Both the position numbers and the translations under genes were made by a program. Source: Caecitellus pseudoparvulus (Eukaryota > Protista > Bigyra: Bicosoecida). From it: DNA of 16,915 bases. This document shows, piece after piece, positions 1 to 16,915 of this stretch; position 1 is the first letter of the stretch; every line of letters starts with the position of its first letter. The notes under the pieces were generated by a model. The model had not been told where the DNA came from and did not search any database. It worked only from the letters and a program-made list of their open reading frames with translations. The DNA lies in contig CBFFRQ010000206.1 of NCBI GenBank assembly GCA_965644315.1, positions 1-16,915 on the forward strand. Reading direction: 5' to 3'.

Positions 1-3000
1 CTGAAGATTTTTGATGGTCTAAACCCTCGAGCACGGCCAGCGAAGTTGGCCCTCGCTGCCCTTGAGAAGCTAGAGGTACGTTGCTGCCTGCATGTTTCGC
101 GCTTGTATGAAGCTCTGTTCCCCGCACTTTGATTGCTTTTCTTCACAGACACCTCCAGACGTAAACCTGGTGCAAGCTTTCGTTTCAAGCGGCTTCATTT
201 CCCAAGTTGACATTGGGATTCGATTCGAGAAGGATAGTACCAAGAAACAGATTCAAGTTCTTGCCTCTCTTCTTGAGTTGACAATGGACGTTAGCTTGAA
301 GCTGTGTCAAGAAGGTGAACTGATCAGCTCGATCGGGGTAGAGTTCGAAAACCGCGTTGCTCAAGTGTGGGCGGAGAAGTTGCCGACGTACTTATGCAAA
401 GCAAAGGCCGAACTGTTGAGGATCGAAACACATGAAGCTGGTGGTGCTGAGTTGTGGGAGATCCTGGAGCGGTCTGGGGTTGTGAAGACCTCTCTGGAGA
501 TGGTGCAAGATGCGGCGAAGGGACTAGCCACGGTCAAGGTTCTGGGGAAAGTTTGTTCGCACTCTGTGGACTCTCTGGCCGAGTGTGACATTGACAAGTT
601 ATTTGAGGATCACGTGCCTGAGCATGTATCCGCAAACTGGATGTCCAGCTTCAAAGCGCAGCTGGAAGCGGCCGTTCGCACTGCATGGTTCAACAGTCAA
701 GCTCGGGCGCTGGGAGTTGTGAACTTGGCCGTGCCACTCCGTGCACTGCTGCTGTTGAAGAAGCGAGGCGAAGACGCGGCCAAGAAGCAGCTCGAAGATG
801 CGGGTGTTGTGGATAAGCAGTTCATCCAGAGACTCCTCAACACAGACGAAGCAACTTTGGATGTCTTGGTGGACAACTTCGGCTGGATGCTCGAGGCCGG
901 GGATGCCTTCCTACGAAAAAATGCGACAGTGTGGGACGTTTTCGAAGCGCTAATGACAGGGCTCGCCGAGGAAAAGTGCCTTCCGAATGCCGAAGAAGGC
1001 GAAAAGGGCATCGAGTGGACGACAGGGTGCTCTCCCATCTTCATGGACGGCATTTTGGAGGCTGTGGTTCTCCGCTTGCCTATCTGGAATGGCCAGCCGT
1101 TTCTGTTTGGACACGACAAGACAGGCTTGACAGAGGTTCCCTTTGGAGACTTGTCTCTGCAAGGCTTGCGACCAACAACGTACGGCATCCGCCCTGAATC
1201 ACCTTCGACTATGCTGCGTAAGGACCTATCCGTGACGACGTATGTCCTGACTCGTGGGCGAGTGAAACTGTTTGAGAAGGCCACCAAAACTTGCTTTGGA
1301 ACTCAGCTTGGGGTCATGACAACAGCCTCTCACGGAACTGGCAAATCTGCGTCAATGCGAGCGTTGGCGTTAATGTTGGGCCTTGGCGCAGGCGGCGATG
1401 TGATGTACTTGCCCAAGTCAGAAGTGTTGGTGCCAGGCACAGAAACGTTCAAAAAGCGAGCGCGCAGTCTGATGGAAGGCGGGCTTGCGCTGTCCTGCGC
1501 CAAAAGTCTCAAGAAGCCTGAGTTGTGCCAAGACATGGCGTCGATTGGCATTTATGGTGCTGACGCACACGAAGCCCTGGAACGCACGATGGTTCGTGGA
1601 GGTTCAGTGTTCCATCACAACGGCAAACAAGAGGGGGACTTTCCCACCCCTAGCTTGCTCATCATTGACGAAGCCAACAGTGTGCAAGGCGAGCTGCTCC
1701 GTCGCGAAGCATTGTCCGGAAGTGACGGCCAGCCTGCTGAGGAGGACAGCCAGCATGCCCAGTGGTGGTACCAACTGAAGGAGTTGTTCAAGTGGACAGA
1801 GGGCTCGAGCAAGGTCTTTGCATTCTCGCCTGATTTTCACGCAAGCCTTTTTGAGAAGAAAATCTACGAGCCTGTGGAAGAGCTGTTTGAAATCAAGACT
1901 TCCAACGACATGTATCATCCCTTCTTTGAGATGGAACGCATGAGGCCCGAGCTTGCGCTCCGGCTCATGCTGGGGCCAAAGGATGGCAAAGGCTCACTTG
2001 GGTTGTCAAAGAAGGTTGGCAGGGTCGCAGACATGCCAGCAGGTCACGATTCCTCCCTTCAGCTGCCTCCTCGGGCAATGGAAGCTCTGCGCACGAAGAG
2101 CAATTTGAAAATGCTCAAAGACTTCATTGAGTCTGTTGATGGCGTCGCTCGTCCGCTGAGCCATGCTGCGGAATTCGCAAAGTCAAGCACGGTTGTTGGT
2201 CCCACCTATTTCTCCGCGGCTGTGTGGCGAGCGTGGATAGAGGTTCGGGGTGACATGGAAAGGCGGTGTCTCAAGAAACTCCAAAGTTTGACCTCGAAGA
2301 ATCTGGTGGACAATAAGCCAGGCGTGGCCATGTTCCTGGATCACTCCATGGCTGCCTCGTCGATCCTCACCAGGGTCAACCCTGACATCTTGGAGTTGCA
2401 CGGGAACGTGGACTTCGCATCTCACATAGCAAGGCATGCTTTCATACGGGCGCTGCTGAGGCGCCACCGAGAAATTGCCGGGTCAAATGCTGACCAGGCA
2501 ACAAAGGATGCTTGGGACAGACTGCTGAACGGGGTGGCCCACCTTGGTGATGGCACCCACTTTGAGCACACTGTGGCAAGTCTGCTGGAGATGGGCATGT
2601 TTGGCTCCGACTACACACCGCTGTCAAAGTCAGCAGACAGAGAGCCAGTTGAAATGCTTCGAAGCTACTTCTACACCAAGGGCACCAACGCATTTTCCAA
2701 AGCCCAAACAAAGGAAGCAGCCGAGGGTGCCGGGCTTTCAGCCGCTGACGTATATGCCGTGCAGACCCTGAAGCCTGAGAGTGTACATGTGGTACGCACG
2801 CCCCACAGCTTTCCGGCTGTGGACTTTGTTGTTTTCCGGCGTCCACCCTCGCCAACTCCAGGGGCGGAACACAATCGAGCAAAGCTGCAGGTGGCTTTCA
2901 TTGAGACCACCGTGTCTTCCCTAGAAACTCATGGGCAGAGCCGCAAATTGAAGAATCTTGCCGTTTCTTCAAATGGCTCGCTCACGACGGGCGAGGTTGT

Positions 3001-3643
3001 ACTACCACAGTCCCTCAGAGACATCGCGAACCTCGCTTGCAACGTCAAGTACTTCACGGAAGTCGAAGGGTCACAGATGAAGTTTAGGAAGTCGAATCTT
3101 ATGGGTCGGAAGAAAACCACGATGGCGAACGCCATCCTGTGGACGTTTGGCGTGCCCGTCGACCTCAACTGTACAGTTCAGTGCTATTCCAAGAAGGAGT
3201 TCGGCAGGCTTATCATGGAGCCACAAGTGTTGTCCGGCACATCGCGAAGCAACGCTCTTGCCAATGCTGCTCAGTTGCTCCAAACACATAAAGATGCTGA
3301 TGAAGAGGATGATGATATTGGAACTCTTGAAGTGGCAACCAGTGAAAGCCTAGAAGGTGAACATGCAGACGAGAGGGCAGTTGCTGTGGAGGTCAGTGAG
3401 AGCGGAGCAGTGGCAGCCGAAGCGAAGGAGGAGTTGGAGAACCTTCCACTTGCGGCAGCCATCCAGGAAAGCAGTGATGTTGAGTTCTTCTTCATCTACT
3501 GCACACCACAGCCAATAGACGAGGGCAGTCACTCACCTGAGGTGGCGACAATCCCAGGCTTCTACGGAGTGTTTGAGCTAGGGTTCCTTCCTCCAGAAAT
3601 GAAGTCCCTGGAAGTCCCCGTGCCAGCCCAAGAAAAGAAGTAA
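1..3643 (+). CDS. Crinkler/RHS-type (CR) protein with P-loop NTPase plus C-terminal PD-(D/E)xK-like REase domain; 5'-partial, exons <1-75 and 149-3643
   Basis: Seen: Walker A-like TTASHGTGKS (~1325-1348), Walker B LLIIDE (~1655-1672), and GTHFE...PHSFPAVDFVVF...VAFIETTVS...H (~2550-2935). Established: NTPase followed by a P-x-x-F-P-x-x-D...(Q/E)-x-T-V...H REase is the CR/RHS effector architecture. Bases 1-75 are an open frame (LKIFDG...LEKLE) that splices in phase 0 to TPPD at 149, so the ATG at 92 is probably intronic. Ends in TAA. Confidence 0.7.
76..148 (+). other. Spliceosomal intron (73 nt, phase 0)
   Basis: GAG|GTACGT donor, pyrimidine-rich TTGCTTTTCTTCACAG acceptor; removal joins two open frames. 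Confidence 0.75.
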
Positions 3644-3686
3644 TGCAATGCTGGTCACATGTCTCCCACCACATCCACTCCATACC

Positions 3687-4036
3687 TGCTCCTCTTCCGA
3701 TCCACCTCGCCCAGGAGCGAGGTGGATCGGCATGATCCAGGCGCCAGGCGTGGCGGCCGTGTAGCGGGCTCGCCGCGCGAGGTCCGCGGCGGGCTGCCCG
3801 CGTTTCACGCCTGCGCCCTGAAGTTGAGCTTCTACCACGTGATCAAACACGGTCTTACAGTACCGAATGCACGTTTTCAGGACCTTCGTCCATCCGGGAG
3901 GTGCGGCGACCACCTCGTGGGGCCAGTAGAAACTTTTGCCCTCTGCGGCACCCCCAGAATTCGGGAGCAACTTTTGTCGCAAGGGCCCAGCAAATGCCTC
4001 CAATGCCTCAACGGCTTCCAGTGGGCCCTGGGACAG
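3687..4036 (-). mobile_element. 350-bp fragment of the 3' coding end of the non-LTR retrotransposon (copy of 9658-10007)
   Basis: Ungapped hand alignment with offset 5971 gives about 31 mismatches in 350 nt (~91% identity); translations are nearly identical (EALEAFAGPLRQKLLPNSGGAA...HLAPGRGG). Confidence 0.92.
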
Positions 4037-4822
4037 CGTGTGTGCGTGTTTCAAACGCAAGCTCTGCTTCATGTGCATTTCGTTGGATCAACAATCAGCG
4101 GACGGGCAGTGGCTCCAGCGTTGGGAGAGCAGCCTTTGACATTTTCAATGCAAGCTTCCGCCCAAGCAAGAACTACTAATTAGGGGGCTGTTGCTGAAGC
4201 TTTGCCCTTCCGGGCAGGTTTCGAGGCATGCAGTTCATCGCGTGGCGAGCCAGGGGCGAGCGTTGTCTCACCAGATTGAGGCCGTGCCGCCGCAAGTGCC
4301 CGCCAAACAAATGATTCTCGCATTTTCGAAATCTAATCAGGCTGTATGCACATTCCACTGCTGTCGACACTCTTGATCAGCCATGATTTTGTGGGCAGCG
4401 ACACGCAACAGCTGACGCTGCTGTTGGGATGAGCCAGTCAACCATCTCGTGAAGACTGGAGACGAGAGCCTGAGAGATGGGAGAACAGGACGGCGAACGT
4501 GAAGTCTGAGCGCTGTAGAAACTGTTCCGATATCTGTATTTCTGACATCTATCCGCAATAAAGGGCCAGGGGGCTGTACAGTGCAGGCAGCTGAGCTGCG
4601 GAAATTGGTTGTGCCTGCCACGACTGGCGCAGTCGATGCTGGAGAAGCTGACGCAGGGAAGGGGCGTCCGCAACGATGGGCAAACAAGTGCCATGAGGTT
4701 ATGGTCTTCTGTGAGGCATGAAGGCTGTGAGTCCCTTCCGGTGCCGCTTTTGCCCGGAGAGTTCGCCGCTGCGGTAGAGTTTGCTTGCGCTTGTGACGCT
4801 GGCGTCTAGCAGGCCAAGTTAG

Positions 4823-7800
4823 ATGCGGGGAGTCGGAGATCCAGCCACGCCTTCCTCGTCAGCTGCATCCACCCCCAGCAATTCTCCCTCTGTGACGCCA
4901 TCAGTGACAGCAACTCGCAGCGTGACCCGGTCATCAAGGCCGCCCGTGTGGCTCTCCTCGACTGTGCAGCAAGAAGTGGCCTTGAATGGGCGCACCATCG
5001 TAGCAGCACTGCACGATCCAGCGGTGCTGTTAGTTGGTGCATAGACAGGGACCAGTGTTGGCGCCCCCCTGTTTCCATCTGATGCAGCAAACCCGACGTC
5101 TGCTGCAACTCTGGTTCTTTTGAGCGTGTCTTGCATCGATACGAGGCTTGAGGCTTAGGGTCCATGTTTGCACTCGACAGACTGGTGGAGGGTGACTCGA
5201 ACCTTTCCGTCTACGTTTCCACGCTTGGCCGTCTCCCTTTCCTTGCAGCTTGGGCCTGCCGCAGTTGATGGGCTGCCACGACTCCCCAGCTCGTACTTGG
5301 AGTCGACTGGGAACTCGAGAGCATTTGACCTTGTGGTTCACGTCCGTGGCGTCGTAGGCTTGAATGCGACTGCAGTCGTGCCTGTGAAGGTGGTCGACTT
5401 GGCCCAAAGTTCAGCGCCACTGCCTTCCATCGCCCCGTCCAGGTCGCCCCTCGTGCGCCCGTCGAGCAGCAGAACGCCAACGCCAACGGCATCCAGCAGT
5501 GCATCCACCCAGCCAACGAAATCACCCGTTGCCTCTCCCTCGTCCACCGCCAGCGTCACTCCTCAACCCCTGCCGTTCCTCACCGCCTTCCCTGTGGAAG
5601 TGGGCGCTGCTTTCGAGCTGAACGGACAGTCTGATACAAAGGCTCAAGCTGTCATCGTGTCCAGTGCCGAACACGTGCACTGGGACGCTCAGGTTTCCTT
5701 TCGGGGCCAACAGCAGGGCTGGCTGACGCTGTCTGCATCCCAGAAGGCGCGACTCCCCGCAAACCAAGGCCAGCAAGGAGTCGTCTTGACCATGCAGTCT
5801 GCGAACCTTCCTCCTGGTCTGCACCGGGCCACTGTTACCTTCCAGGTAAACTCGACGGCTTCAAACGAAGCGGCTGGCGGGGCAACTGGGCGACTTCGGG
5901 TGGCCGACCTTTTGCCTGTCATTGTGCAGGTTTCATAGCGGGTCATCGCGCCGATCTCGGACATACGGCCTCGCATGGTGGAGCGCAACTTCATCCCAGG
6001 CGGCAACAGCACCCAACAGCTGCTTCTGCGAAACGTCGGGTCTGGCACCCTGACCTGGAGACTTGACCACGCGGACGCTACATTGGCACCATGGCTCGCA
6101 GTGTGCACCCCAGCAGGTGTATGTGGCCATGCTGGAGGCACCGGCTCCGACATTGCTTCCGTGCTTGCCAGTGAGCAGGGCGTCGTTTCCGTCGGCTCCC
6201 TTCGAGAAGAGTCAGGGGTGCTGCAGGGGTCTCTTGGCGTGGGTGAGCGTGTGCACCTCACAGTCTGGCTGGTTTCCCCGGGTGCAGCTGTCAGCGGGCT
6301 GTTTTCGAGCACCCTGCGCTTGCGCACGAATGAGTACGATCCCATGTCCAAAGCTGGGCAGCTTGATCATGTGCTGCCGGTGACCATGCGCTCTACGCTG
6401 CTTTCTGTGGTCCCTGGCACGGTGTCGCTGGCAGTGGCGCCCAGCAAGGAAGCCTCCGGCGTCGCCATCCTGCAAACGTTGGCATCCTTCGCTGATCTAC
6501 ACGTGCAAGTGGTACCGTCGCAGGGCACCATGTCCACAGCCACATGGCTGCAAACAACCACGACAAAGGATGAGCTCTTGCTGCCTGCTTCCACTGGGCA
6601 ACTGGTGGTGCATTTCAGCGTTGTGCATGGGGGTGAGCTGTGTCTTGGACCATGGCCACCACTTGGACTTCTGTGCGGCAGCAGAGAGCTAGCGGCAACA
6701 ATCCTGGTGCGCATCACTGCATCTGGGGCAGAAGGTGCGTCAGGTGCGACAGACGTGGCTGCGCTGGCTGCGTACGAAGAAATCCGGGCCATCCCTGTGC
6801 GAGTGCAAGTGCGCGGTGGAGGGGCATTCTCGCACACGAGCAGATTCATGCTGATCGATGCAGTTTCGTGGCCCAAACGCGCTGACCGCGAAGTGATCGC
6901 CATTCAGTCTGCTTTGAGCGGGCAACGCAACATGTCCATGGTGGATGCCTCAGCGTCTGGAAGCACAAACATTGTTTCCGAGCGGCAGCAAGTGGGGCTC
7001 TTGCTTGATGCCCGAGATGCCACAAGTCGCGAAGTGGAGTCCCTCGTTGAGTTACCGCAAGTGCGCCAGCTAGTGACTGGCGAAGCCGACCTGACTGTCG
7101 GGCTCGCCGCCCTGGACGAAGGGCGTGCCGTACTGCAAGTCCAACCGTCTCAGCCACAAACTACGCTGCTCAGATCCTCTATCTCTGGGCAAGCCATATA
7201 TCCGTATCTGTCACGGGGTGCGGTGGCTGTGCCTGCTGTGGTAGTGAGCCCAACTTGCCGCACCGACAGCGAGGTGCTGGCTGACTCGCAGATGGACTGC
7301 ATTTGTGCCACGGGCTGGCAGCGCCGCCAGAGCACCAATGACACTTTTGGGCTTCGTTGTGAATGCTGCCCTCCTGGAACAATCCGCGCCAACGTAGAGA
7401 ACCAAGAGGCCGCATGCACGCAGTGCCCTGGCGGCACGTTCGCCAACCTGGCCCAGACCAAGTGCTTGCAGTGCCCCTTGAACGGCGTCAGCTGTGCTGC
7501 TGGGCAGTTCAGGCCTCGCCCGGGTTTCTGGTGTGATACCTGCGTGACCGATGCGTCCACGGTGCCATCACACCCCAAGCTGCAGGAAAGGTACTGGAGC
7601 AAGCTGAAAGATGTGGCCAGTGCCGAGCTGCAGGGTGACACAACCAGCGCTGATTCGCCCGCGAGACGGCGTCTGCAAGCACTTGTGAATGAGACAGCTG
7701 AGTTGCAGGCCGCAGTCGCAGGGAAAGCGGTTCTTTACGCTGGTGCGAGCATCCTTCAGTGCACGCCTCCAGATGCGTGCAGGCCTGTAGCGAACTCGAG

Positions 7801-9106
7801 TGGCATCTCCTGCGTGCCTGGGCACAGGGGCATCCTCTGTGGCGAGTGTGCTGAAGGCTGGGCAAGGTCCAGCCCACAGCTGCTCTGTGTGAAGTGCCCC
7901 GATGACAGTTTTGGCTTTCTGCAGAGCATCGGCTCTTGGGTTTTGTTCGCGGGGCTCCTCGTTTACTTGGCCCTGCGCACGAGTGATCGGGAGAGCAAGG
8001 AGGGGCAAAGCAGGGGCCTGCTCATTGGAGTCTTCCGTGTCATGACCGGCTGGGCCCAGATGTTCGCAGTGCTGCTGAGTACCCGCTTGCCGCCTGAAAG
8101 CGCGTTGGATGGCATCATGGCGTGGCTCTCCTCAGTGTCAGTCGGCGTCAGCACCAACCCGGTCCCTGTCCAGTGTGCCTTGCGCGCAGACATGTACACT
8201 CGCTTCTTCATCACCCTGAGCATACCCATTGCTGCAGTGAGCATTCCGTTGATCGTAGCGGGTGTGACCAGCATCTTGCAGCGGCAAAGCCACGCAGTGC
8301 TGCAGGCTGCTGCTGAGAGGTATGCTGAGGAGAAGGGTGGGGGCTCAGTTGGCGGGGAAGGCGCTGCCGAGTCTGGGATGGTGGCGCCACAGCCCCTTGC
8401 CGCTTCCACTCCTCCCAAGAAAGAGGGTGCTCTGGTTGATGATACATTTGCCTTCCCTGCGCCAAAGACCCTGGTGTCTCCAACTTCCAGGCCTTCCGCG
8501 CTGGTTCCAAGGTCCACCTCATTCCAAGACGACACAGGCCCGACCGACCCATCTCCAGCAGCGAGATGGACATCTACGTGGGCTGACTTGGACGATCTGG
8601 CCGAGGCTGACGAAGAGTCAGAAGGCTCAGTTGTCATTGATATGCGCAAGCCGCGATCAAGCCGCGGCCAGGCGGCAGCGCAGGCTGAAGCAGCTGTGAT
8701 GCCTGGCGCACCGCCGGCTCACCCTGCAAGCATGCGCTCTGAGGAGAAAGCTGTGCTGGCAAAGACTGTGGACCTCTTCAAGCAGCGGGCGAGGTGTGCT
8801 GAGCAAGCGCATCGCGCAGCCTTCATCCTGCTCTTGCTGGTGCACTTCCCTGTAGTCGAGGCATGTCTGCGCATGCTGGACACGTACGACTTCCGAATCC
8901 TGGGCTTCCTGTTCCTCCGTTCAGAGCACTGGCCCGCACCATGGTTCGGGCGCTGCCGAAGGCTTATCAGAACCAAATTGTGCCGCGACAACTTGGGTGG
9001 CTTCGACAAAAGACTTTTCAGCTCTGTCTGCGATGGCACGTGGAGACAACTTCCATCCGCTGCTTGGGCACGGGGGTCCATGGCTGGGCTTGCAGCGCCT
9101 CCATAG
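4823..9106 (+). pseudogene. Large cell-surface multipass membrane protein gene (Ser/Thr/Pro linkers, cadherin-like and Ig-like domains, Cys-rich repeats, TM helices), interrupted by three in-frame TAG codons and probably 3'-truncated near 8925
   Basis: ORFs 4823-5044, 5168-5938 and 5975-9106 share one frame, separated only by TAG at 5042, 5156 and 5936. Motifs: GTSVGAPL..SD and FDLVVHVRG...VPVKVVD (cadherin-like), QQLLLRNVGSGTLTW (Ig/BACON-like), CxxCPxGTF and CVPGHRGILCGECAEGW (Cys-rich repeats typical of protist multipass receptors), several hydrophobic helices. True start and end are uncertain. Confidence 0.6.
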
Positions 9107-9420
9107 TCAAAGCCAGTGCCTACGCAGAGGCAGCACCGTTGCTGTGGCGCTGTGGGCGGTGAGCAATGTGCTTTAGCAGCGCACCTGGATCATAGCCCAC
9201 GACTTCTGACGAATATCTGGGCATTTGCACCACGAAATGGTGCGAGGTGTCCGACTCTGCGCTGCATGGAGGCTTAGGAAGTTCAATGCATTGTAGCCTC
9301 TTGTTTTCACCACACTCACCTCACACTTGCTCCTCGAAAGAAGCGGGCCACGGTTCTCGCTTGCGTCGCGCACATATCTTGCACGAAACATGGTGAGTCA
9401 CCATGTGAAGTAAGCTTGTT
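8925..9420 (-). pseudogene. Possible fragment of an intron-containing host gene on the minus strand (introns 9262-9319 and 9120-9184)
   Basis: Minus-strand GTGAGT...CCATGCAG (58 nt) and GTGCGC...CTGCGTAG (65 nt); splicing both keeps an open frame (...FFRGASVS AESDTSHHFVVQMPRYSSEVVGYDPG TGFDYGGAASPAMDP...). No homology evidence is available. Confidence 0.3.
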
Positions 9421-9644
9421 CTTTTCAGAACATGGTACTTTAATGTTCTTCGTCGTCATTCAGGCGTTCGGCGCCTGTTGGGTGAGTTGGGCGCGGGTTT
9501 CGGCCTTGGCGTGTTGGGGGCGCCGCGGCGACCCCGCGCACACCTCACCACCCCGCGACCCAGAACAACCCCGCCGCGCGTTACGACACTGGGAATTTCG
9601 GAATAACATCTTAGAATGCACTATCAACCCAAAGCAAGCTTTTA

Positions 9645-12143
9645 TCACTCACTTTCTTGCTCCTCTGCCGCGCCACCTCGCCCGGGAGCGAGGTGGCTTG
9701 GCATGGTCCAGGCAGCAGGCGTGGCGGCCGTGTAGCGGGCTCGCCGCGCGAGGTCCGCGGCGGGCTGCCCGCGTTCCACACCTGCGCCCCGGAGTTGAGC
9801 TTCTACCACGTGATCAAACACGGCCCCACAGTACCGGATGCACGTTTTCAGGACTTGCGTCCATCCGGGAGGTGCGGCGACCGCCTCGTGGGGCCAGTAG
9901 AAACTTTTGCCGTCAGCGGCACCCCCAGAATTCGGGAGCAACTTTTGCCGCAAGGGCCCAGCAAATGCCTCCAATGCTTCAGCGGCTTTCACTGGGTCTT
10001 GGTCCAGTAGATGGGTCGAGTTTCGGACTGGAACACGCAGCCGTTCCATGTGTGGCGCCGTGAGGGCAGCACAAGTTGCGTGATCCCAGTCCGCACACTC
10101 GGGTGCTCCCGTGGGCCACTGACCACACAGGGCGAGCCGCTTCAGCAACGCCCGGGTGTTCTGGCATGAGATACGTGTTCCAGTGTCCAGTTGACAGCCA
10201 GCCTGCACCGCTGTGTGCAGACTTTCTGGAATGGTGACGTATCTCAGAGGTGGGTGCCGAAGGGCCTCGGCCGTCGGCCGCCTCGGCACAGCGGTTGACT
10301 TTGCCGCTTCGTCACAGTCCAGCAAGTTCTGCGCAGCCTCTCGGAAGAACGCCAGACGTTCTAGAGACACTGAAGGGCAGTCCAGCAGAATGTGGTCTAA
10401 AATGAACTCCGCATCGCGTATTTCGGGGTCCAGACAGAGAGGACATGCGATATACGGCGTCAGGAGTGCACCCGGATGCAGGAGCTGCTGTGTCTGCAGC
10501 ATGAACACCTTCGGCAACCAACTTCTGTCAGGATGACAGGCAGTCCAAGCGCTACAGGGAACACTTGGAATCGGATGCAGTTCCGCGTGTGTTCGCGCTC
10601 GGACGTCCAAATGGTGAGGCCTCGGCGAGAGCGTCGGATTCACTCTTTTGTCGCCTATTTCTCCCCGAGGCGAGTGGCCCGGGTACTCAGCAGGTAGGAA
10701 CATGGTCTCCCGATACATGTCTGTTCTTTGCGTTCGTGCAATGAACAAGTACGACTGCAGGAGGTCCAAACGCTGCCTCAACGTGAAAGTGGCAGGGAAG
10801 TCAACCAACTTGTCGAACCTCGCAGAGGCCACAGGAACACTTGTTGCGACGAACAACTTCGGGCCGTTCTGGGCCGTGTTCTTGGGCAGCTTTAAGGCCT
10901 TTTGGAGAGATCGCATCTCTTCGTGTAGGGCCGTGGTGTCCCGATTTCCGCTCAAATCGTGCCACCTCGTGGCCATGGCCAGAACGCCGAACACACCTTC
11001 GTGGTACCCTAACAGGCGCAACTCCAAGAGGGGTCTGACGGCCCACGGAGTGCCTGTGCCATAGAAGGTGTGTTTCGAGGCCGCTACGTCTTCCAAAAGG
11101 AGGGCCGAAGGGACCCTCTCGTCCGGGACGTCCGCGACCATCGTTCGGCCCTGCCACACGCTCACCATCAGGATCTTGAAAGCAGGCGAATCCACCACAG
11201 CCTGCTTAAGTGTCCGGACTATGAAACCAATGCGACTTCGCATCGTGCGCATGTGTGTCAGAGGAATACCAGCCGCTGCAAGGACCGCGCCGTGTTGGAC
11301 GCGCATCGGATGAAGCTGAAAACCGAACACGGATTTGTCCAGAACACTGCCAATGGCATTGTCACACATGCGGTTGGGCATGAGCGAGTGTTTGCCGGTG
11401 ATTGCCAGTGTGTAGTCCGCTGCAGCGACCACTGAGGTCCTCAAAAGGCGGTGCGCTGCCGATGGGGCGAGCCATTCGGCCGCAGAAATCGCCACAGAAG
11501 AATGCCCAGCCATGCTCAAGGTGGTTGCGGCATGTCGACGAGCTGTTTTATGTTGTATGAACAGCTTGGCTTGTAGCGGTGTTCCTAAGTACTCGTACTC
11601 GTCCGTGAGAGGGATCCGCTTTCCGTCGACGGTTAGCGCCTGTGACTCCGCAGCAAGGCGTTTCTTGGCGCTGACTATCTGCACATGGAGTCGGCTCATG
11701 CGATACGCAAGTCGTGGTGTTGGTCGCATGATCATGATGGCCGACTTGGAGGCGTTGACTCTGAGCCCCAGCAGCGCCCCGACCCGCCTGACGATGGTGA
11801 TCGCACGGATCACGGCGTCCGCGCTGTCTACGACGAGTCCCAGGTCGTCTGCGTACAGCGCGTGGCTGAATCGGGGTCCAGTGTGGACTGGGTCCCCCTT
11901 TGAATGCAGTAGCTTGACCCCCAGTGTCGGTTTTTCCCCCGTTCCCTCCCCCGGAATGTGGTTCAAGGAGAGCGCACGGGACACCAGGTCGACCGCGATC
12001 TTGAATAGGAGGGGCGAGAGGACGCTTCCTTGCGCTACGCCACTGGTCGCGTGAATGGCCTCGGTCATGCCGTGTTCCGTGTCGATGCAGACGCTGGCGT
12101 TCTCGATGAAATCCACGAGGAGTCGCCTGGTGGTGCGGTCCAG
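9645..12143 (-). mobile_element. Non-LTR (LINE-like) retrotransposon ORF, 5'-truncated: C-terminal half of reverse transcriptase plus CCHC zinc knuckle
   Basis: GVAQGSVLSPLLF, LYADD, LGLRVNASKS, YEYLG RT motifs; CPLC...DHILLDCP. The frame extends upstream of the GTG at 12116 (LDRTTRRLLVDFIEN) to ~12143-12146, then meets TGA inside the palindrome. N-terminal RT motifs and endonuclease are absent. Ends TGA TAA. No poly(A) or TSD seen. Confidence 0.9.
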
Positions 12144-12247
12144 CTGTCACCCGCCAAAATCAATGAATTCAATTACTTATTAAGAGGGGCCCTATATAGT
12201 GCCCCTCTTAATAAGTAATTGAATTCATTGATTTTGGCGGGTGACAG
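12144..12247. repeat. 104-bp near-perfect palindrome (hairpin/cruciform) at the host-element junction
   Basis: 12144-12190 is the exact reverse complement of 12201-12247 (47 bp). The centre C-CTATATAG-T is self-complementary except for one C/T mismatch (12191/12200). Confidence 0.98.
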
Positions 12248-12327
12248 GGGGCTTTTATGGTGTCATTTTCAACCATTCAATCATTCAATTCTGTGACCAT
12301 CATCGTCTCATTTCTGTCATTCATTCA

Positions 12328-12481
12328 TTTCTGGCGGATGTTCAGTCTCACTCAATTCACGCAATTCATTCATTCAATTTCACGACCATCACCGTGTCAT
12401 TTTTCTTTTGTATTTGTTTCTGGCGGATGTTCAGTCTCACTCAATTCACGCAATTCATTCACTCAATTTCACCACCATCAC
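12328..12481 (+). repeat. 65-bp direct repeat x2 (12328-12392, 12417-12481) within a G-poor TCAAT/CATT low-complexity tract (~12255-12625)
   Basis: TTTCTGGCGGATGTTCAGTCTCACTCAATTCACGCAATTCATTCA...ACCATCAC, 63/65 identical, period 89. Confidence 0.93.
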
Positions 12482-12703
12482 GCTCTCAATTCAATCCACT
12501 CAATTCAATCATTTTCTCTCTCAGTCACAACTTCTTCAATCAATTATTTTCAACACCATCAACGCTCTCAATCCACTCAATCAAATCATTCACTTACAGT
12601 CTCACCAGTCACAAAAACCACTTTTTCACACGGCGCTCCCAAAGGTCGCACCGCGCAACGAGCGACAGCGAGTGAGCACACACCTCAAAAACAACATACC
12701 GCT

Positions 12704-13044
12704 GGTGACAATAATTATCGTCACCCATTCTTATGCTCTTAATATTTCACTCATTTTATCTCTTATTAGACACCTACTATGGTCTTGTTCTTTCAACATT
12801 TTTAGAGGGTGACGGAGTGACGATAATTTCGGACTACCTCCTCGTAAAAAATCAAGTTGTAACACAAACACTACAACTTAAAAAAAGATAAAAGGGTTCT
12901 CCCAAATTATCGTCACTCCGTCACCTCTTACTATAATTATCACACTACTCTATCACTTTGTTACCATAACTGGTATAAATCTCACGGTGACAATAATTTT
13001 TTGTTTTCGTCACCTTCCGTCACCTCCGTCACCTTTTCGTCACC
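12704..13044. repeat. GTGAC/GTCAC iteron-like array with inverted and direct copies; putative replication origin or protein-binding region
   Basis: GTGACRATAATT at 12705(+), 12713-12724(-), 12817(+), 12905-12916(-), 12987(+). Perfect 22-bp inverted repeat 12808-12829/12904-12925. CGTCACC x4 at 13008, 13018, 13027, 13038. The repeats are seen; the function is inferred. Confidence 0.8.
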
Positions 13045-13080
13045 CACACCCTATCCCACATCTCTCTCATATTGAGGGGC

Positions 13081-13890
13081 TTACTTAAAGCGTCCGCGCT
13101 CACGGTTCAGCACCACCGAACTATACACTCCACCAATTAACGTGCTTAATTTATGTGCTTTTAATGTGCTCTCTGCGGGTATTTTTAACACCACCGTATT
13201 CCATGGCGACACACTTGCTATATTTTGACTTATTACATCACCCTCCACCACATAGTTTGTTGCTAACTGATTTCTAAACATATCCTCGTTCTGTAATGGA
13301 CTTGAACCTGCGTTAAATGTTATTACTCTTGATGTCTTGAATGTTTGAAAACCCAAATCTAATGCTATATCTCCACCTAACGAAAATCCTGTTAAAATTA
13401 TATTATCTGCGTCAAATCCACTATTCATTAAACCCATAACTCGTAACTTAACCTCCTCTACCATTTCAAAAAATGACAAAGTCCCTGTTCCAGTCAATAA
13501 ACCCATATCTGCTTGTATGTCATTCACATCTGTTAATTTCGTGCCTCGTATTGCTACGATTGCTGTGTTTGTTAAGAATGTCTTTGTATAAACTGCTACA
13601 CGCTCCGTGCTGTGCTTCCTACTATACAAATAATATGTGTCAAACACACCCTGCCTATTCTCCACAGACTTAAATGCCTCATTACACATCTCACCACATA
13701 AATATGCCTCGTGAGGTATTTCTATTTTTTGAAACACATCACTTATGGTTGAAACTTGTAAGGGATTGTAATTCATTTTATATTTTTCTGTCACCTTCTC
13801 TCTACTACTTGCTGTGACTTTATCAAAAACATAAGACTTTAATGCCTCTTCTAACAATTCATAAAAGACTGTTGCCATTATAATATACAT
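13081..13890 (-). CDS. Alpha/beta-hydrolase, class 3 lipase-like (start may be ATG at 13878)
   Basis: IVAIRGT, nucleophile elbow TGFSLGG (GxSxG), TFNAG, GDVIS (candidate catalytic Asp), KAH (candidate catalytic His). Confidence 0.85.
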   Translation of the reverse strand: MYIIMATVFYELLEEALKSYVFDKVTASSREKVTEKYKMNYNPLQVSTISDVFQKIEIPHEAYLCGEMCNEAFKSVENRQGVFDTYYLYSRKHSTERVAVYTKTFLTNTAIVAIRGTKLTDVNDIQADMGLLTGTGTLSFFEMVEEVKLRVMGLMNSGFDADNIILTGFSLGGDIALDLGFQTFKTSRVITFNAGSSPLQNEDMFRNQLATNYVVEGDVISQNIASVSPWNTVVLKIPAESTLKAHKLSTLIGGVYSSVVLNRERGRFK

Positions 13891-13904
13891 TATGGTGATA
13901 TATT
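13884..13904 (-). promoter_or_regulatory. Shared AT-rich upstream motif AATATATCACMATAATGTATA (copy 1)
   Basis: 20/21 identical to 15812-15832; both sit at the same distance from the ATG-N9-ATG start. Confidence 0.65.
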
Positions 13905-13924
13905 ATAATATGTATTTATTTTGC

Positions 13925-14056
13925 TTACCCCATCTTTGCCATTATTTTTTTAACTTGGTTATATTCTTTTGTGCCCTTTTTTGGTACTAAATACTTTCCA
14001 GTTTTGTTGTGTTTAGAATTCCACTCCTTCAAAGCCATTATCCATTTATTAGCCAT
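13925..14056 (-). CDS. Small basic protein, 43 aa (MANKWIMALKEWNSKHNKTGKYLVPKKGTKEYNQVKKIMAKMG); not in the ORF track
   Basis: ATG to TAA, co-oriented, fills the gap between neighbours, Lys-rich, preceded by TGTATAATAAAAATG like the adjacent genes. Confidence 0.75.
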   Translation of the reverse strand: MANKWIMALKEWNSKHNKTGKYLVPKKGTKEYNQVKKIMAKMG

Positions 14057-14088
14057 TTTTATTATACAATACAATAATATTTTAATTT

Positions 14089-14165
14089 TAAGGGACGTGT
14101 CCCTTAGGATCCCTTTTGCTTACGCTTTTTCTAAAAGCGTGTCGGGGCATATGGGGTGTCCCCAT
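14089..14165 (-). terminator. Three tandem stem-loops directly downstream of the 186-aa ORF stop; putative 3'-end/polyadenylation signal
   Basis: TAAGGGAC-gt-GTCCCTTA (14089-14106), ACGCTTTT-tct-AAAAGCGT (14122-14140), ATGGGG-tgt-CCCCAT (14151-14165). Confidence 0.55.
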
Positions 14166-14726
14166 CTAAAAGTCATCCATTTCAGTCAATACATTCCCAC
14201 TTGCGTCTTCTAAATGATATGTAGATAAGAGAGCAGAAATGAATGATTCAATTTTATCCAGTTTTCCATCGTGTTCCACATCTTTTTGTTGCCTATCTGC
14301 GATTGCGGTTGAGAGTGATTGCGTAAGGGTGCTGTCCGCGTTTTCCAGTTGAGTAACAACAGCGTCATAAGCGGTTTGAGACACTTTTTCGTTAATTGCT
14401 TTATCCACTTCACCTTGGATTTCATTTGTATTGTTGGTAATCCACGCGTTAATGGCGTTAATAGAAGCATCTACACCATCTATACGAGTAGAAACATCGC
14501 TAAAAGAAGCATCTACACTAGCACGAATAGCGCCTCTGTCTTGGGCTGCCGAAGAAATTGAAGAAGATAGTTGAGATGCGAGTTGTGCGTTCTTGGTGTT
14601 TTGTGCTTGTGCGTTAGCATTTGCGTTAGACACGAAAGAAGTCACAACATCGTATAAGTATTTGGAGTAACCGAAAGCGCCTTGACCTGAAGGAACAGTA
14701 AATTGAGTTTGTGTAGTTTGGCTCAT
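14166..14726 (-). CDS. Coiled-coil protein, 186 aa; possible virion fibre/shaft
   Basis: A/S/Q/N-rich helical sequence with heptad-like pattern (LASQLSSSISSAAQDR, LTQSLSTAIADRQQKDVEHDGKLDKI). Function is inferred. Confidence 0.75.
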   Translation of the reverse strand: MSQTTQTQFTVPSGQGAFGYSKYLYDVVTSFVSNANANAQAQNTKNAQLASQLSSSISSAAQDRGAIRASVDASFSDVSTRIDGVDASINAINAWITNNTNEIQGEVDKAINEKVSQTAYDAVVTQLENADSTLTQSLSTAIADRQQKDVEHDGKLDKIESFISALLSTYHLEDASGNVLTEMDDF

Positions 14727-14759
14727 ATTATAACATAGAATTAGATAAAAAAATGCGTA

Positions 14760-15818
14760 TTAATTTATATCAATTCCATATACTTCTAATTCTTTCAATT
14801 GAACTGATGTGTCACTAATACTAACTAATCTTACTGCTTTGACATTCATAACATTACTAAATGGTATTTCTACTTTCTTATTTACATCATTATAATCTGC
14901 GGTTAATACTGATGTTAATACATTATCATCTTCATCTAATAGTTCTAATCTGTATTGCTTCCAACGATTAGCAGCCCAACTCTCTTGTAAAGTATAATAT
15001 ACAACTTTTTCAACACGCTTCTTCCCATTAAAATCAATTCGTAACCATTCCCCTGTTCGTTCTTCCGTAACAGATGCTATACGATAATCCCCATCTTTTA
15101 TACCGTTGTTTGAATAGATTGCGTAATTATCATCATTTGTTCCATAACGACTTGATTGCGTTGCTACACCTCCGTTTGTGTCTAATGCTACATTATATGG
15201 TTCTTGTTCTTGAACTATTCCGCCATAACTCACGAAAATAGTATATTCATTTAATCCATCTTCAAAATTAAACCTAAATAACTCTTCACGGTTTTCATTC
15301 AATAACACGAGCCTAAAATCATTTATTCTACTCATAAAACCATCTGCCCTGTTAAATACTTTTACACTTTGTATGTTAAAATCACTCACTAAATCAACTT
15401 CCCACCATTCATTATTTCCATTTGCGGTTAGAGACATTTTTTCACTATTTATAACTTTTACCCCATCAACCGCTTCTGGAGCAAATCGCTTGTTTTCTAA
15501 ACTTGAAGATTGTGTTGCTGGTTTAAAGAGTGCTACATTTGTATTTGTATTGTCATATGCCTCAACTTCTCTCAATTGTAAATATTGACCGTTTCCTGTG
15601 CGGTTTTCAATACGAACATACCTAACTAATGTGTCATTATTATTACCACTACTATCAACACCTCCGTTGTTGTTGCCACCACTTACTTCCCTTCCTAAAA
15701 AGTAATTGAAATTCACATCATTCTCACTTGCGTCTTTCATAACAAACACATCACTTTGATAATCCACATACGACTTCAATACTTTGCTAAAACCTACATA
15801 ACTCATATTATTATACAT
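14760..15818 (-). CDS. Protein with two F5/8 type C (discoidin / F-type lectin-like) domains; possible receptor-binding protein (start may be ATG at 15806)
   Basis: NVALFKPATQSS...AVDG...WWEVDL...VKVFNRADGFMSR and NVALDTNGGVATQSS...WLRIDF...VKAVRL...QLKELEVYG. Confidence 0.85.
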   Translation of the reverse strand: MYNNMSYVGFSKVLKSYVDYQSDVFVMKDASENDVNFNYFLGREVSGGNNNGGVDSSGNNNDTLVRYVRIENRTGNGQYLQLREVEAYDNTNTNVALFKPATQSSSLENKRFAPEAVDGVKVINSEKMSLTANGNNEWWEVDLVSDFNIQSVKVFNRADGFMSRINDFRLVLLNENREELFRFNFEDGLNEYTIFVSYGGIVQEQEPYNVALDTNGGVATQSSRYGTNDDNYAIYSNNGIKDGDYRIASVTEERTGEWLRIDFNGKKRVEKVVYYTLQESWAANRWKQYRLELLDEDDNVLTSVLTADYNDVNKKVEIPFSNVMNVKAVRLVSISDTSVQLKELEVYGIDIN

Positions 15819-15832
15819 TATTGTGATATATT
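15812..15832 (-). promoter_or_regulatory. Shared AT-rich upstream motif AATATATCACMATAATGTATA (copy 2)
   Basis: 20/21 identical to 13884-13904. Confidence 0.65.
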
Positions 15833-15849
15833 TTTTATGAACGTTTTAA

Positions 15850-16050
15850 TCAATCCATAGGCGTAAACTTCAATTCCACAAAAATCCTGTAATACACATC
15901 ATACTGCTGGTATCCTTCGCTATTCTTGTATAAATCTGATGAGTAATACACATTAAGGTTGGTTGTGTATGAGCTTGACTTCGTTATGGTCTTTGAAAAT
16001 ACGTGTTTTGTATTACACGCCACATAGTCATTACCATAATTGAGATTTGG
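15850..16050 (-). pseudogene. C-terminal 66 codons of a gene whose 5' part is replaced by the telomere; beta-rich, possibly a minor capsid (penton)-type C-terminus
   Basis: Open frame PNLNYGNDYVACNTKHVFSKTITKSSSYTTNLNVYYSSDLYKNSEGYQQYDVYYRIFVELKFTPMD* runs up to the first telomeric repeat with no usable start codon. The product guess is weak inference. Confidence 0.65.
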
Positions 16051-16900
16051 TTAGGGTTAGGGTTAGGGTTAGGGTTAGGGTTAGGGTTAGGGTTAGGGTT
16101 AGGGTTAGGGTTAGGGGTAGGGTTAGGGTTAGGGTTAGGGTTAGGGTTAGGGTTAGGGTTAGGGTTAGGGTTAGGGTTAGGGTTAGGGTTAGGGTTAGGG
16201 TTAGGGTTAGGGTTAGGGTTAGGGTTAGGGTTAGGGTTAGGGTTAGGGTTAGGGTTAGGGTTAGGGTTAGGGTTAGGGTTAGGGTTAGGGTTAGGGTTAG
16301 GGTTAGGGTTAGGGTTAGGGTTAGGGTTAGGGTTAGGGTTAGGGTTAGGGTTAGGGTTAGGGTTAGGGTTAGGGTTAGGGTTAGGGTTAGGGTTAGGGTT
16401 AGGGTTAGGGTTAGGGTTAGGGTTAGGGTTAGGGTTAGGGTTAGGGTTAGGGTTAGGGTTAGGGTTAGGGTTAGGGTTAGGGTTAGGGTTAGGGTTAGGG
16501 TTAGGGTTAGGGTTAGGGTTAGGGTTAGGGTTAGGGTTAGGGTTAGGGTTAGGGTTAGGGTTAGGGTTAGGGTTAGGGTTAGGGTTAGGGTTAGGGTTAG
16601 GGTTAGGGTTAGGGTTAGGGTTAGGGTTAGGGTTAGGGTTAGGGTTAGGGTTAGGGTTAGGGTTAGGGTTAGGGTTAGGGTTAGGGTTAGGGTTAGGGTT
16701 AGGGTTAGGGTTAGGGTTAGGGTTAGGGTTAGGGTTAGGGTTATGGTTAGGGTTAGGGTTAGGGTTAGGGTTAGGGTTAGGGTTAGGGTTAGGGTTAGGG
16801 TTAGGGTTAGGGTTAGGGTTAGGGTTAGGGTTAGGGTTAGGGTTAGGGTTAGGGTTAGGGTTAGGGTTAGGGTTAGGGTTAGGGTTAGGGTTAGGGTTAG
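16049..16900 (+). repeat. Telomeric (TTAGGG)n tract, ~142 units, G-rich strand running toward the window end
   Basis: Nearly perfect array; variants GTAGGG near 16117 and TTATGG at 16741. Confidence 0.99.
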
Positions 16901-16915
16901 AGCAATACTACATGT
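16901..16915 (+). other. Probable nanopore ligation adapter remnant
   Basis: AGCAATAC matches the start of the reverse-complemented ONT ligation adapter (AGCAATACGT...) and lies at the very end of the sequence. Confidence 0.6.

What the first reader, a model, noticed from the sequence alone, without database searches (positions are those of the whole stretch)
12144..16900. Candidate new system: hairpin-ended virophage/PLV-like element forming a chromosome end and capped by host telomere
Seen: host LINE | palindrome | subterminal repeats | iteron-like array | lipase, basic peptide, coiled coil, lectin protein, truncated ORF | (TTAGGG)n. Established: protist genomes carry AT-rich endogenous virophages/PLVs (e.g. 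mavirus-like elements in Cafeteria; mavirus encodes a lipase-like hydrolase), normally with TIRs and an integrase or tyrosine recombinase. Inference: an integrase-independent route in which a linear viral end patches a broken chromosome and telomerase seals it, or breakage inside a provirus followed by healing, which would inactivate it. A giant-virus or transpoviron-like origin cannot be excluded.
Basis: partly seen in the sequence, partly recalled or inferred. Interest (0 to 1): 0.85.

Follow-up and report, generated by a model that had tools for sequence, protein, structure and literature searches.

The report
Broken protist virus sealed by telomere
The last 3.9 kb before this telomere is likely the leftover end of a small polinton-like or virophage-type DNA virus that likely inserted into a jumping gene and was likely later broken and capped by the host's telomerase, which is close to what a 2026 preprint reports for another protist.

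Summary
The anatomy is real. A LINE is cut at 12144. It is followed by a 102-bp palindrome (12145-12246, TG...CA), a ~1.05-kb terminal repeat, four intact AT-rich genes, a start-less fifth ORF and 142 telomere units. Relatives of two of the genes (lipase, basic peptide) lie in one 17-kb viral contig with an rve integrase and an A32 ATPase, so the element is likely of the PLV/virophage supergroup. No hallmark gene lies in the window, so the class is open. Public contigs show: a relative running on ~1 kb past the telomere point, a second flank meeting the same TG tip, a relative capped by telomere 591 bp earlier, and the host LINE itself capped at two other points. Best reading: ordinary integrase insertion into a subtelomeric LINE, then breakage and telomere healing, which in this host is not specific to the virus. 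The window's LINE/palindrome junction was not independently bridged. Palindrome-tipped virophages and PLVs at chromosome ends and in LINEs are described in Halocafeteria (2026 preprint). A direct telomere cap inside one was not found in the texts searched. New member of a known kind.

The parts
9645..12144 (-). Host LINE ORF (C-terminal part of the reverse transcriptase plus a cysteine-rich tail), cut inside the RT domain at 12144
   Evidence: RVT_1 E 2.5e-11; aligns from residue 1390 of a 2159-aa endonuclease+RT relative, 29% identity; LINE continues past 12144 in other copies
12145..12246 (.). Terminal palindrome, 51-bp arms, TG...CA ends, one mismatched pair; likely the opened hairpin tip of the element
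   Evidence: centre crossed by a contig in X12, and a second flank meets 12145 in X1
12145..13190 (.). Terminal repeat, likely one TIR, ~1.05 kb, overlapping the last ~110 nt of the lipase ORF
   Evidence: loose ends behind 13190 in X1, X3, X5 and X12; X1 bin depth 108-363 against 48.9 on the inner contig
12275..12492 (+). 89-bp tandem repeat, 2.4 copies, with degenerate continuation to ~12614
12808..12925 (.). 31-bp inverted repeat with a 56-nt spacer
13008..13034 (+). 9-bp repeat x 2.9 (the weak 'iteron-like' array)
13081..13878 (-). Class-3-type lipase, 265 aa, GFSLG motif, predicted Ser-Asp-His triad
   Evidence: Ser invariant, Asp and His in at least 90% of 70 aligned relatives; model pLDDT 85.8; Foldseek hits include the mavirus lipase, E 1.2e-9, and a Qinghai Lake virophage protein; 30% identical to the lipase of viral contig L014
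13925..14056 (-). Basic peptide, 43 aa
   Evidence: 23 of 35 residues identical to an ORF in viral contig L014
14089..14165 (.). Cluster of short hairpins between two genes, possibly transcript end signals
   Evidence: fold; the same cassette occurs in variant terminal repeats (joints 13094/14110 and 14130/13091)
14166..14726 (-). Long coiled-coil protein, 186 aa, possibly a fibre stalk (inference)
   Evidence: single helix 19-169 in the model; 7 relatives, none informatively named; no fold match at E<=0.001
14760..15806 (-). Tandem F5/8 (fucolectin-like) domain protein, 348 aa, likely an attachment protein
   Evidence: PF00754 E 3.5e-15, two stretches; 6 PDB hits, all to fucolectin-type domains by name; start codon choice is inferred
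15850..16048 (-). 5'-truncated ORF, 65 open codons without Met, running up to the telomere
   Evidence: a relative's contig has 997 further letters beyond 16037 (X12 record 14)
16049..16900 (+). Telomere tract (TTAGGG)n, 142 units
   Evidence: junction carried by contigs in X1 and X3

Best explanation
This is likely the surviving 3.9-kb end of an endogenous polinton-like virus or virophage that was likely inserted into a subtelomeric LINE by a retroviral-type integrase and likely later broken inside its fifth gene and capped by host telomerase. Step 1 (shown): an AT-rich block with a palindromic TG...CA tip, a ~1.05-kb terminal repeat shared with other inner sequences, and four intact genes. 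Step 2 (inferred from gene sharing): the genes are the entry/attachment module (lipase, lectin, coiled coil, basic peptide) of a Polisuviricotina virus. Step 3 (inferred): the free genome has hairpin tips; opening one gives the palindrome with a CA-3' end, the end that DDE/rve integrases join to target DNA (established knowledge), here the LINE RT gene. Step 4 (truncation shown, cause inferred): a break or erosion removed everything distal, including capsid, replication and integrase genes and the second TIR, and telomerase added TTAGGG directly. This copy would therefore be dead as a virus. Step 5 (inferred): such healing recurs at this host's chromosome ends and is not virus-specific.
For: Viral identity: relatives of both the lipase (30%, E 2e-21) and the basic peptide (23 of 35) lie in one 17-kb IMG/VR contig with rve+chromo integrase, Pox_A32 ATPase and DUF5906 helicase hits. 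The lipase model matches mavirus and virophage proteins. Lipases are reported as abundant in PLVs and virophages (PMC4642659, passages) and paired F5_F8_C domains are reported in PLVs (PMC12220804, passages). TIR: the shared region ends at exactly 13190 in 4 runs (X1, X3, X5; X12); its length and 36% GC fit EMALE values (TIR median 0.9 kb, low-GC types 29.7-38.5%; PMC8547959 Results). Precise tip: a second 102-nt flank meets 12145 and the LINE reads on past 12144 in 4 runs. Truncation: start-less ORF at the junction; a 2480-nt contig of organism C matches to 16037 and has 997 more letters. Recurrent healing: organism B's relative joins telomere after 15457, and the LINE joins telomere after 9846 and 9982. 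At two of these joints (9846, 15457) the last three bases before the repeat fit its register, as expected of telomerase seeding.
Against: No hallmark gene (MCP, penton, ATPase, protease, polymerase, integrase) lies in the window and no full copy was recovered, so the integrase is assigned through a relative that shares only two accessory genes, and these move between virus groups. The lipase fold also matches giant-virus class 3 lipases, and 17 of the 30 hits at E<=0.001 have no name. The target-site duplication cannot be tested because the distal flank is gone. The window's LINE/palindrome junction is not bridged in any displayed contig. A third X1 contig leaves the palindrome at 12179, not at the TG tip, so not every junction is precise. 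The telomere joints have only 22 letters on the repeat side, which the tool flags as unreliable, and they were not listed when repeats were skipped. The 997 extra letters in organism C were not displayed. Contig depth is not copy number.
Confidence: 0.68

Rival explanations
1. Integrase-independent patch: a free linear viral end was ligated to a chromosome broken inside the LINE, and telomerase sealed the other side.
For: The LINE is cut mid-RT, LINE copies end at other chromosome breaks, no target-site duplication is visible, and one X1 junction falls inside the palindrome at 12179.
Against: The join is flush at the TG...CA tip with no microhomology or filler against the LINE continuation. 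A second flank meets the same base. The family has TIRs and a relative encodes rve integrase. Insertion into LINEs and subtelomeres is reported for integrase-bearing elements.
Confidence: 0.1
2. One old healing event, spread afterwards: a truncated, telomere-capped end was copied between chromosome ends or inherited, and then eroded further in organism B. The cap points would not be independent events, and the four genes might be kept by the host.
For: The two cap points are only 591 bp apart. X1 depth on this copy (48.9) is about twice that of a diverged second copy (26.7-29.3). All four ORFs are intact.
Against: Organism B's copy differs at 69 of 1872 letters plus 18 gap positions. Depth is not copy number. 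No RNA evidence was available.
Confidence: 0.1
3. The LINE/palindrome join is a long-read assembly chimera. The element-telomere end is real but belongs to another chromosome end or a free linear molecule.
For: No displayed contig bridges 12144/12145; both sides are repeats.
Against: The join is exactly at the natural tip seen with another flank. A short low-depth link between two repeats is expected to drop out of simplified contigs (inference). The inner element has the lowest depth of the stretch in X1 (48.9 against 379-501 for long LINE contigs), unlike an amplified free virus.
Confidence: 0.07
4. Fragment of a giant virus or a transpoviron-like element rather than a PLV/virophage.
For: Class 3 lipases of giant viruses are among the fold hits; the intergenic hairpins recall giant-virus transcript ends (recalled).
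Against: The only relative with known context is a 17-kb contig with rve integrase and A32 ATPase. The 1-kb terminal repeat with palindromic tip matches PLV/virophage anatomy.
Confidence: 0.05

Closest known systems
Palindrome-tipped endogenous virophages (subtypes 1, 2, 5, 6) and PLV subtype 4 of Halocafeteria seosinensis (bioRxiv 10.64898/2026.07.28.741278)
   Same: Low-GC TIR elements with palindromes at the TIR tips (52 nt in subtype 5), linked to RVE integrases, often near telomeres, complete or partial at 13 chromosome ends, often inside LINEs; hairpin-primed replication proposed.
   Different: Different host: the repeat here is the hexamer TTAGGG and flanks are ~58% GC, against TAACCCT and 47%. 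The text read does not describe a telomere added directly inside a viral gene; its supplements were closed. Sequence relatedness was not tested.
Mavirus and EMALEs of Cafeteria burkhardae (PMC8547959)
   Same: AT-rich, intron-free, TIRs of about 0.9 kb, rve integrase, lipase gene, insertion near host repeats.
   Different: The lipase is only 22% identical in the fold alignment and far shorter (265 against 712 aa). The main text holds 0 occurrences of 'palindrom' or 'telomer'. Truncated EMALEs there kept two TIRs. That host is 70% GC.
17-kb IMG/VR contig L014 (PLV/polinton-type by gene content)
   Same: Shares the lipase and the basic peptide.
   Different: 26% GC, other gene order, no coiled-coil or lectin relative. 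Its capsid gene is my inference from size and position: no hit in Pfam, PHROGs, NCBIfam or PDB.
De novo telomere addition (chromosome healing), e.g. Plasmodium subtelomeric breaks (PMC5550746, search listing only)
   Same: Telomere repeats joined directly to a broken gene, with short seeds in register.
   Different: Here the broken sequence is an integrated virus or a LINE.

Membership tests
Endogenous Polisuviricotina element (PLV/virophage/polinton) | Terminal inverted repeats of hundreds of bp | tested here: met
   Shared terminal region 12145-13190 with a second inner continuation in 4 runs; the inverted arrangement itself is inferred, since only one end is in the window
Endogenous Polisuviricotina element (PLV/virophage/polinton) | GC content well below the host's, intron-free dense genes | tested here: met
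   36.2% against 57.6-59.5%; ORF map
Endogenous Polisuviricotina element (PLV/virophage/polinton) | Double-jelly-roll MCP, penton and A32 packaging ATPase | tested here: inconclusive
   None in the window, which is truncated; A32 only in relative L014; no full copy could be fetched
Endogenous Polisuviricotina element (PLV/virophage/polinton) | Integrase (rve or tyrosine recombinase) | tested here: inconclusive
   Absent from the window; TG...CA tip and rve+chromo in L014 are indirect
Endogenous Polisuviricotina element (PLV/virophage/polinton) | Target-site duplication | not testable with these tools
   The distal flank was lost with the truncation; no genome assembly is held
Virophage (mavirus/EMALE type) | Virophage-type MCP and cysteine protease | not testable with these tools
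   Genes missing from the window; L014 shows no protease hit among 17 ORFs scanned and its 429-aa capsid candidate has no PDB hit below E 1.4
Palindrome-tipped elements of the Halocafeteria type | Palindrome at the outer tip of the TIR, next to host DNA | tested here: met
Palindrome-tipped elements of the Halocafeteria type | [quoted passage not shown] | not testable with these tools
   Replication module missing; L014 has a 399-aa ORF with polB-like motifs by my reading only, no database hit
Telomere-integrating herpesviruses (HHV-6/Marek type; recalled) | Virus-encoded telomeric repeat arrays used for integration | tested here: not met
   No TTAGGG or CCCTAA hexamer occurs in 12145-16048
Transpoviron | Superfamily 1 helicase on a ~7-kb TIR molecule tied to a giant virus (recalled) | not testable with these tools
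   No helicase among the window's five ORFs; the rest is missing

The most novel reading that the evidence does not exclude
A family of hairpin-ended polinton-like viruses couples parvovirus-style hairpin opening to a retroviral integrase and piles up at chromosome ends. Its host repeatedly disarms the proviruses by breaking them in the same lectin-gene region and adding telomeres, and keeps an intact lipase-lectin entry module. This would be telomerase acting as an antiviral editing tool.
Probability: 0.12. Interest if true: 0.75.

Novelty: new member of a known kind. Interest (0 to 1): 0.38.

Why it matters
It gives a base-level picture of how a protist provirus can die: exact TG...CA tip on one side, telomere added inside a gene on the other, and a second cap point in another organism's copy. 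It extends palindrome-tipped PLV/virophage ends to a further host, and shows that the palindrome's outer ends have the retroviral-integrase signature. That makes the untested hairpin-replication model of the 2026 preprint easier to test. If healing proved to be aimed at proviruses it would be a new antiviral route, but the capped LINEs suggest general chromosome-end turnover.

Tried and rejected
No genome assembly is held, so the all-ends survey and host single-copy depth could not be done. No RNA holder listed. Pattern scans for relatives found none in IMG/VR for the lipase, coiled coil, lectin, basic-peptide frame and relative P0013, none in JGI metagenomes and none in GTDB genomes; these scans reach close relatives only. 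One of the 8 viral scans succeeded. A 16-base tip motif gave 13 IMG/VR loci; none had BLAST similarity to the element, so they were dropped as chance. No phage tblastn match for the lipase; no Rfam match in 9000-16048; no fold match for the coiled coil. A suspected shared N-terminal motif between coiled-coil and lectin proteins scored only 5.6% probability, so it was rejected. The ESM Atlas did not complete. The host could not be named: host ORFs are not in the collection and relatives carry no informative names. Halocafeteria and Cafeteria burkhardae fit poorly by telomere repeat or GC (33, 62). Organism D (X16) covered 11 of 30 bins, nearly all in the terminal repeat, and gives no evidence on capping. 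Parts without cover in X5 and X8 are not taken as absence. Literature: 8 searches. No listed paper combined virophage with 'telomere healing' (20 of 112 listed) or polinton/virophage with 'de novo telomere' (12 of 191 listed). The Tetraselmis PLV preprint has 0 occurrences of telomer/palindrom/hairpin.
Full report
Observation. The window ends in GC-rich host DNA (57.6% over 1-9600), a LINE (59.5%), a 3.9-kb AT-rich block (36.2%) and a telomere. The LINE ORF on the minus strand (9645-12146) hits RVT_1 and aligns from residue 1390 of a 2159-aa endonuclease+RT relative, so it is cut inside the RT domain. The block starts with a palindrome. The repeat finder gave 12144-12247, but contigs show that 12144 is the LINE's own base, because LINE copies read through it and continue as LINE in runs X1, X3, X8 and X12. 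The palindrome is therefore 12145-12246, with 51-bp arms, one mismatched pair and TG...CA ends. In 100 shuffles the longest arm was 12. A 70-nt contig from organism C crosses its centre with 0 differences. Then follow 2.4 copies of an 89-bp unit, a 31-bp inverted repeat and a weak 9-bp array. Five minus-strand ORFs follow: lipase, basic peptide, coiled coil, tandem F5/8 lectin and 65 codons without Met that run up to the telomere. The telomere has 142 units, 140 perfect.

What the genes are. The lipase has GFSLG with Ser invariant and Asp and His in at least 90% of 70 aligned relatives, which were the 5 closest plus 65 chosen from the top of 150 listed hits. Its model (pLDDT 85.8) matches the mavirus lipase (E 1.2e-9), a Qinghai Lake virophage protein and giant-virus class 3 lipases; 17 of the 30 hits at E<=0.001 are unnamed. 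Close relatives (4 lipases at 51-99%, 7 coiled coils at 35-91%) are unnamed or 'hypothetical' proteins on short contigs. One more distant lipase relative could be placed: it lies in a 17,022-nt IMG/VR contig (L014), 30% identical. The same contig encodes a relative of the basic peptide, 23 of 35 residues identical. Of its 17 ORFs scanned, hits include rve + chromo integrase, Pox_A32 ATPase and DUF5906 helicase, plus a fibre-like ORF. A 429-aa capsid candidate and a polB-like ORF are my reading only; no library named them. L014 has no coiled-coil or lectin relative. The lectin's 6 PDB hits are fucolectin-type domains by name. Lipases are reported as abundant in PLVs and virophages (PMC4642659, passages), and paired F5_F8_C domains in PLVs (PMC12220804, passages). 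A pattern scan of GTDB genomes found no relative. The element is thus likely of the PLV/virophage supergroup, but no hallmark gene is in the window and the class is open.

What public contigs show. Twenty runs from 12 studies hold part of the stretch; I laid 6. (a) Telomere junction: a 2780-nt contig in X1 (13296-16070) and a 1069-nt contig in X3 (15007-16070) carry it with 0 differences, but with only 22 telomere letters inside the stretch, and X1 may be the source sample. (b) Truncation: a 2480-nt contig of organism C matches 14114-14752 and 15225-16037 and has 997 more letters on the distal side. They were not displayed; that they are not telomere is inferred, since k-mer contigs collapse such repeats. 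(c) Terminal repeat: contigs leave the window at exactly 13190 in X1, X3, X5 and X12, and X1 depth over 12194-13265 is 108-363 against 48.9 further in. This marks a ~1.05-kb repeat, likely a TIR. (d) Tip: in X1 a different 102-nt flank meets 12145; another contig leaves the palindrome at 12179 into GC-rich sequence. (e) Other caps: organism B's relative (69 differences and 18 gap positions in 1872 letters) joins telomere after 15457; the LINE joins telomere after 9846 (X3) and 9982 (X1, X3). These joints have 22 letters on the repeat side and were not listed when repeats were skipped. At 9846 and 15457 the last three bases fit the repeat's register; at 9982 the letters between are unknown, and at 16048 the original continuation is unknown. 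(f) Against: no displayed contig bridges the window's own LINE/palindrome join (32 of 2728 pieces and 24 of 126 loose ends shown; 32 of 150 and 24 of 52).

How it most likely works. Shown: a palindrome-tipped terminal repeat flush against a cut LINE, intact accessory genes, a cut gene, a telomere. Inferred: the free virus has hairpin tips; opening one yields the palindrome with a CA-3' end, which a retroviral-type integrase joins to target DNA (established chemistry of DDE integrases, from my own knowledge); the target was a subtelomeric LINE; a later break removed the rest of the provirus and the chromosome tip, and telomerase added repeats. The copy would be inactive as a virus. Because the LINE is capped in the same way elsewhere, healing looks like general chromosome-end turnover. 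Confidence 0.68. Rivals: integrase-independent patch 0.10; one old cap spread or eroded 0.10; chimeric left join 0.07; giant-virus or transpoviron origin 0.05.

Comparison with what is known. An earlier AI note in this scan pointed to a 2026 preprint, which I read (10.64898/2026.07.28.741278, parts 1-4 of 5: abstract to methods; supplements closed, and its Fig. S7 and Table S1 may show direct telomere joins). It reports palindromes at TIR tips of Halocafeteria virophages and one PLV subtype, linked to RVE integrases, with elements near telomeres, complete or partial at 13 chromosome ends and nested in LINEs, and proposes hairpin-primed replication. EMALEs (PMC8547959: abstract, passages, Results parts 1-2 of 3) match in TIR length and GC, but that main text has no 'palindrom' or 'telomer'. 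Also seen as passages only: 10.64898/2026.06.25.734631, PMC12747079, PMC10945749; 10.1101/2025.10.09.676808 gave no term hits. Eight searches listed no paper on a telomere added inside a PLV or virophage; only the top 9-20 rows of each were seen, and most subscription papers are not held.

Verdict. It works like a palindrome-tipped endogenous PLV/virophage; membership of a particular class is untested. It is a new member of a known kind, with one detail not found in the texts searched: direct, apparently repeated telomere capping inside the provirus. Interest 0.38.

Noticed in passing
window 9645-12144 and 3687-4031: The LINE looks telomere-associated: contigs join it to telomere repeats after 9846 and 9982, with its 3' end inward, and a 92% identical 345-bp fragment of its 3' part lies at 3687-4031. 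This recalls telomeric LINEs of Giardia and Drosophila (recalled).
   Followed up: partly
window 92-3643: Intron-free 1183-aa host ORF with a P-loop-like motif and a C-terminal nuclease-like motif, reminiscent of subtelomeric Crinkler/RHS proteins (recalled); no significant Pfam or NCBIfam hit.
   Followed up: no
window 5168-9106: Two ORFs (256 and 1043 aa) that may be one frame-broken surface-protein gene with cysteine-rich repeats (weak DUF7630 and NCD3G hits) and membrane segments.
   Followed up: no
window 14753-15224: Organism C's relative lacks these 472 bases, which would leave a single-domain lectin.
   Followed up: no
window 13845-15989: Run X1 holds a second, diverged copy of the gene block at depth 26.7-29.3, matching only in patches.
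   Followed up: no
window 13091-13094 and 14110-14130: Variant terminal repeats in X1, X5, X8 and X16 carry a copy of the intergenic hairpin cassette that the window's copy lacks at this place.
   Followed up: partly
window, upstream of 13878, 14056, 15806: A shared TGTAT-type AT-rich motif lies just upstream of three of the four intact ORFs (3 of 6 pattern matches in the element), a possible promoter; the coiled-coil gene has a variant and two TCTA words (mavirus motif).
   Followed up: partly
window 16903-16915: Non-telomeric tail resembling a nanopore adapter remnant (recalled), consistent with a true molecule end.
   Followed up: no
L014 1-15730: A 17-kb PLV/polinton-type contig whose capsid and polymerase candidates escape Pfam, PHROGs and NCBIfam, and PDB sequence search; possibly an undescribed group.
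   Followed up: partly
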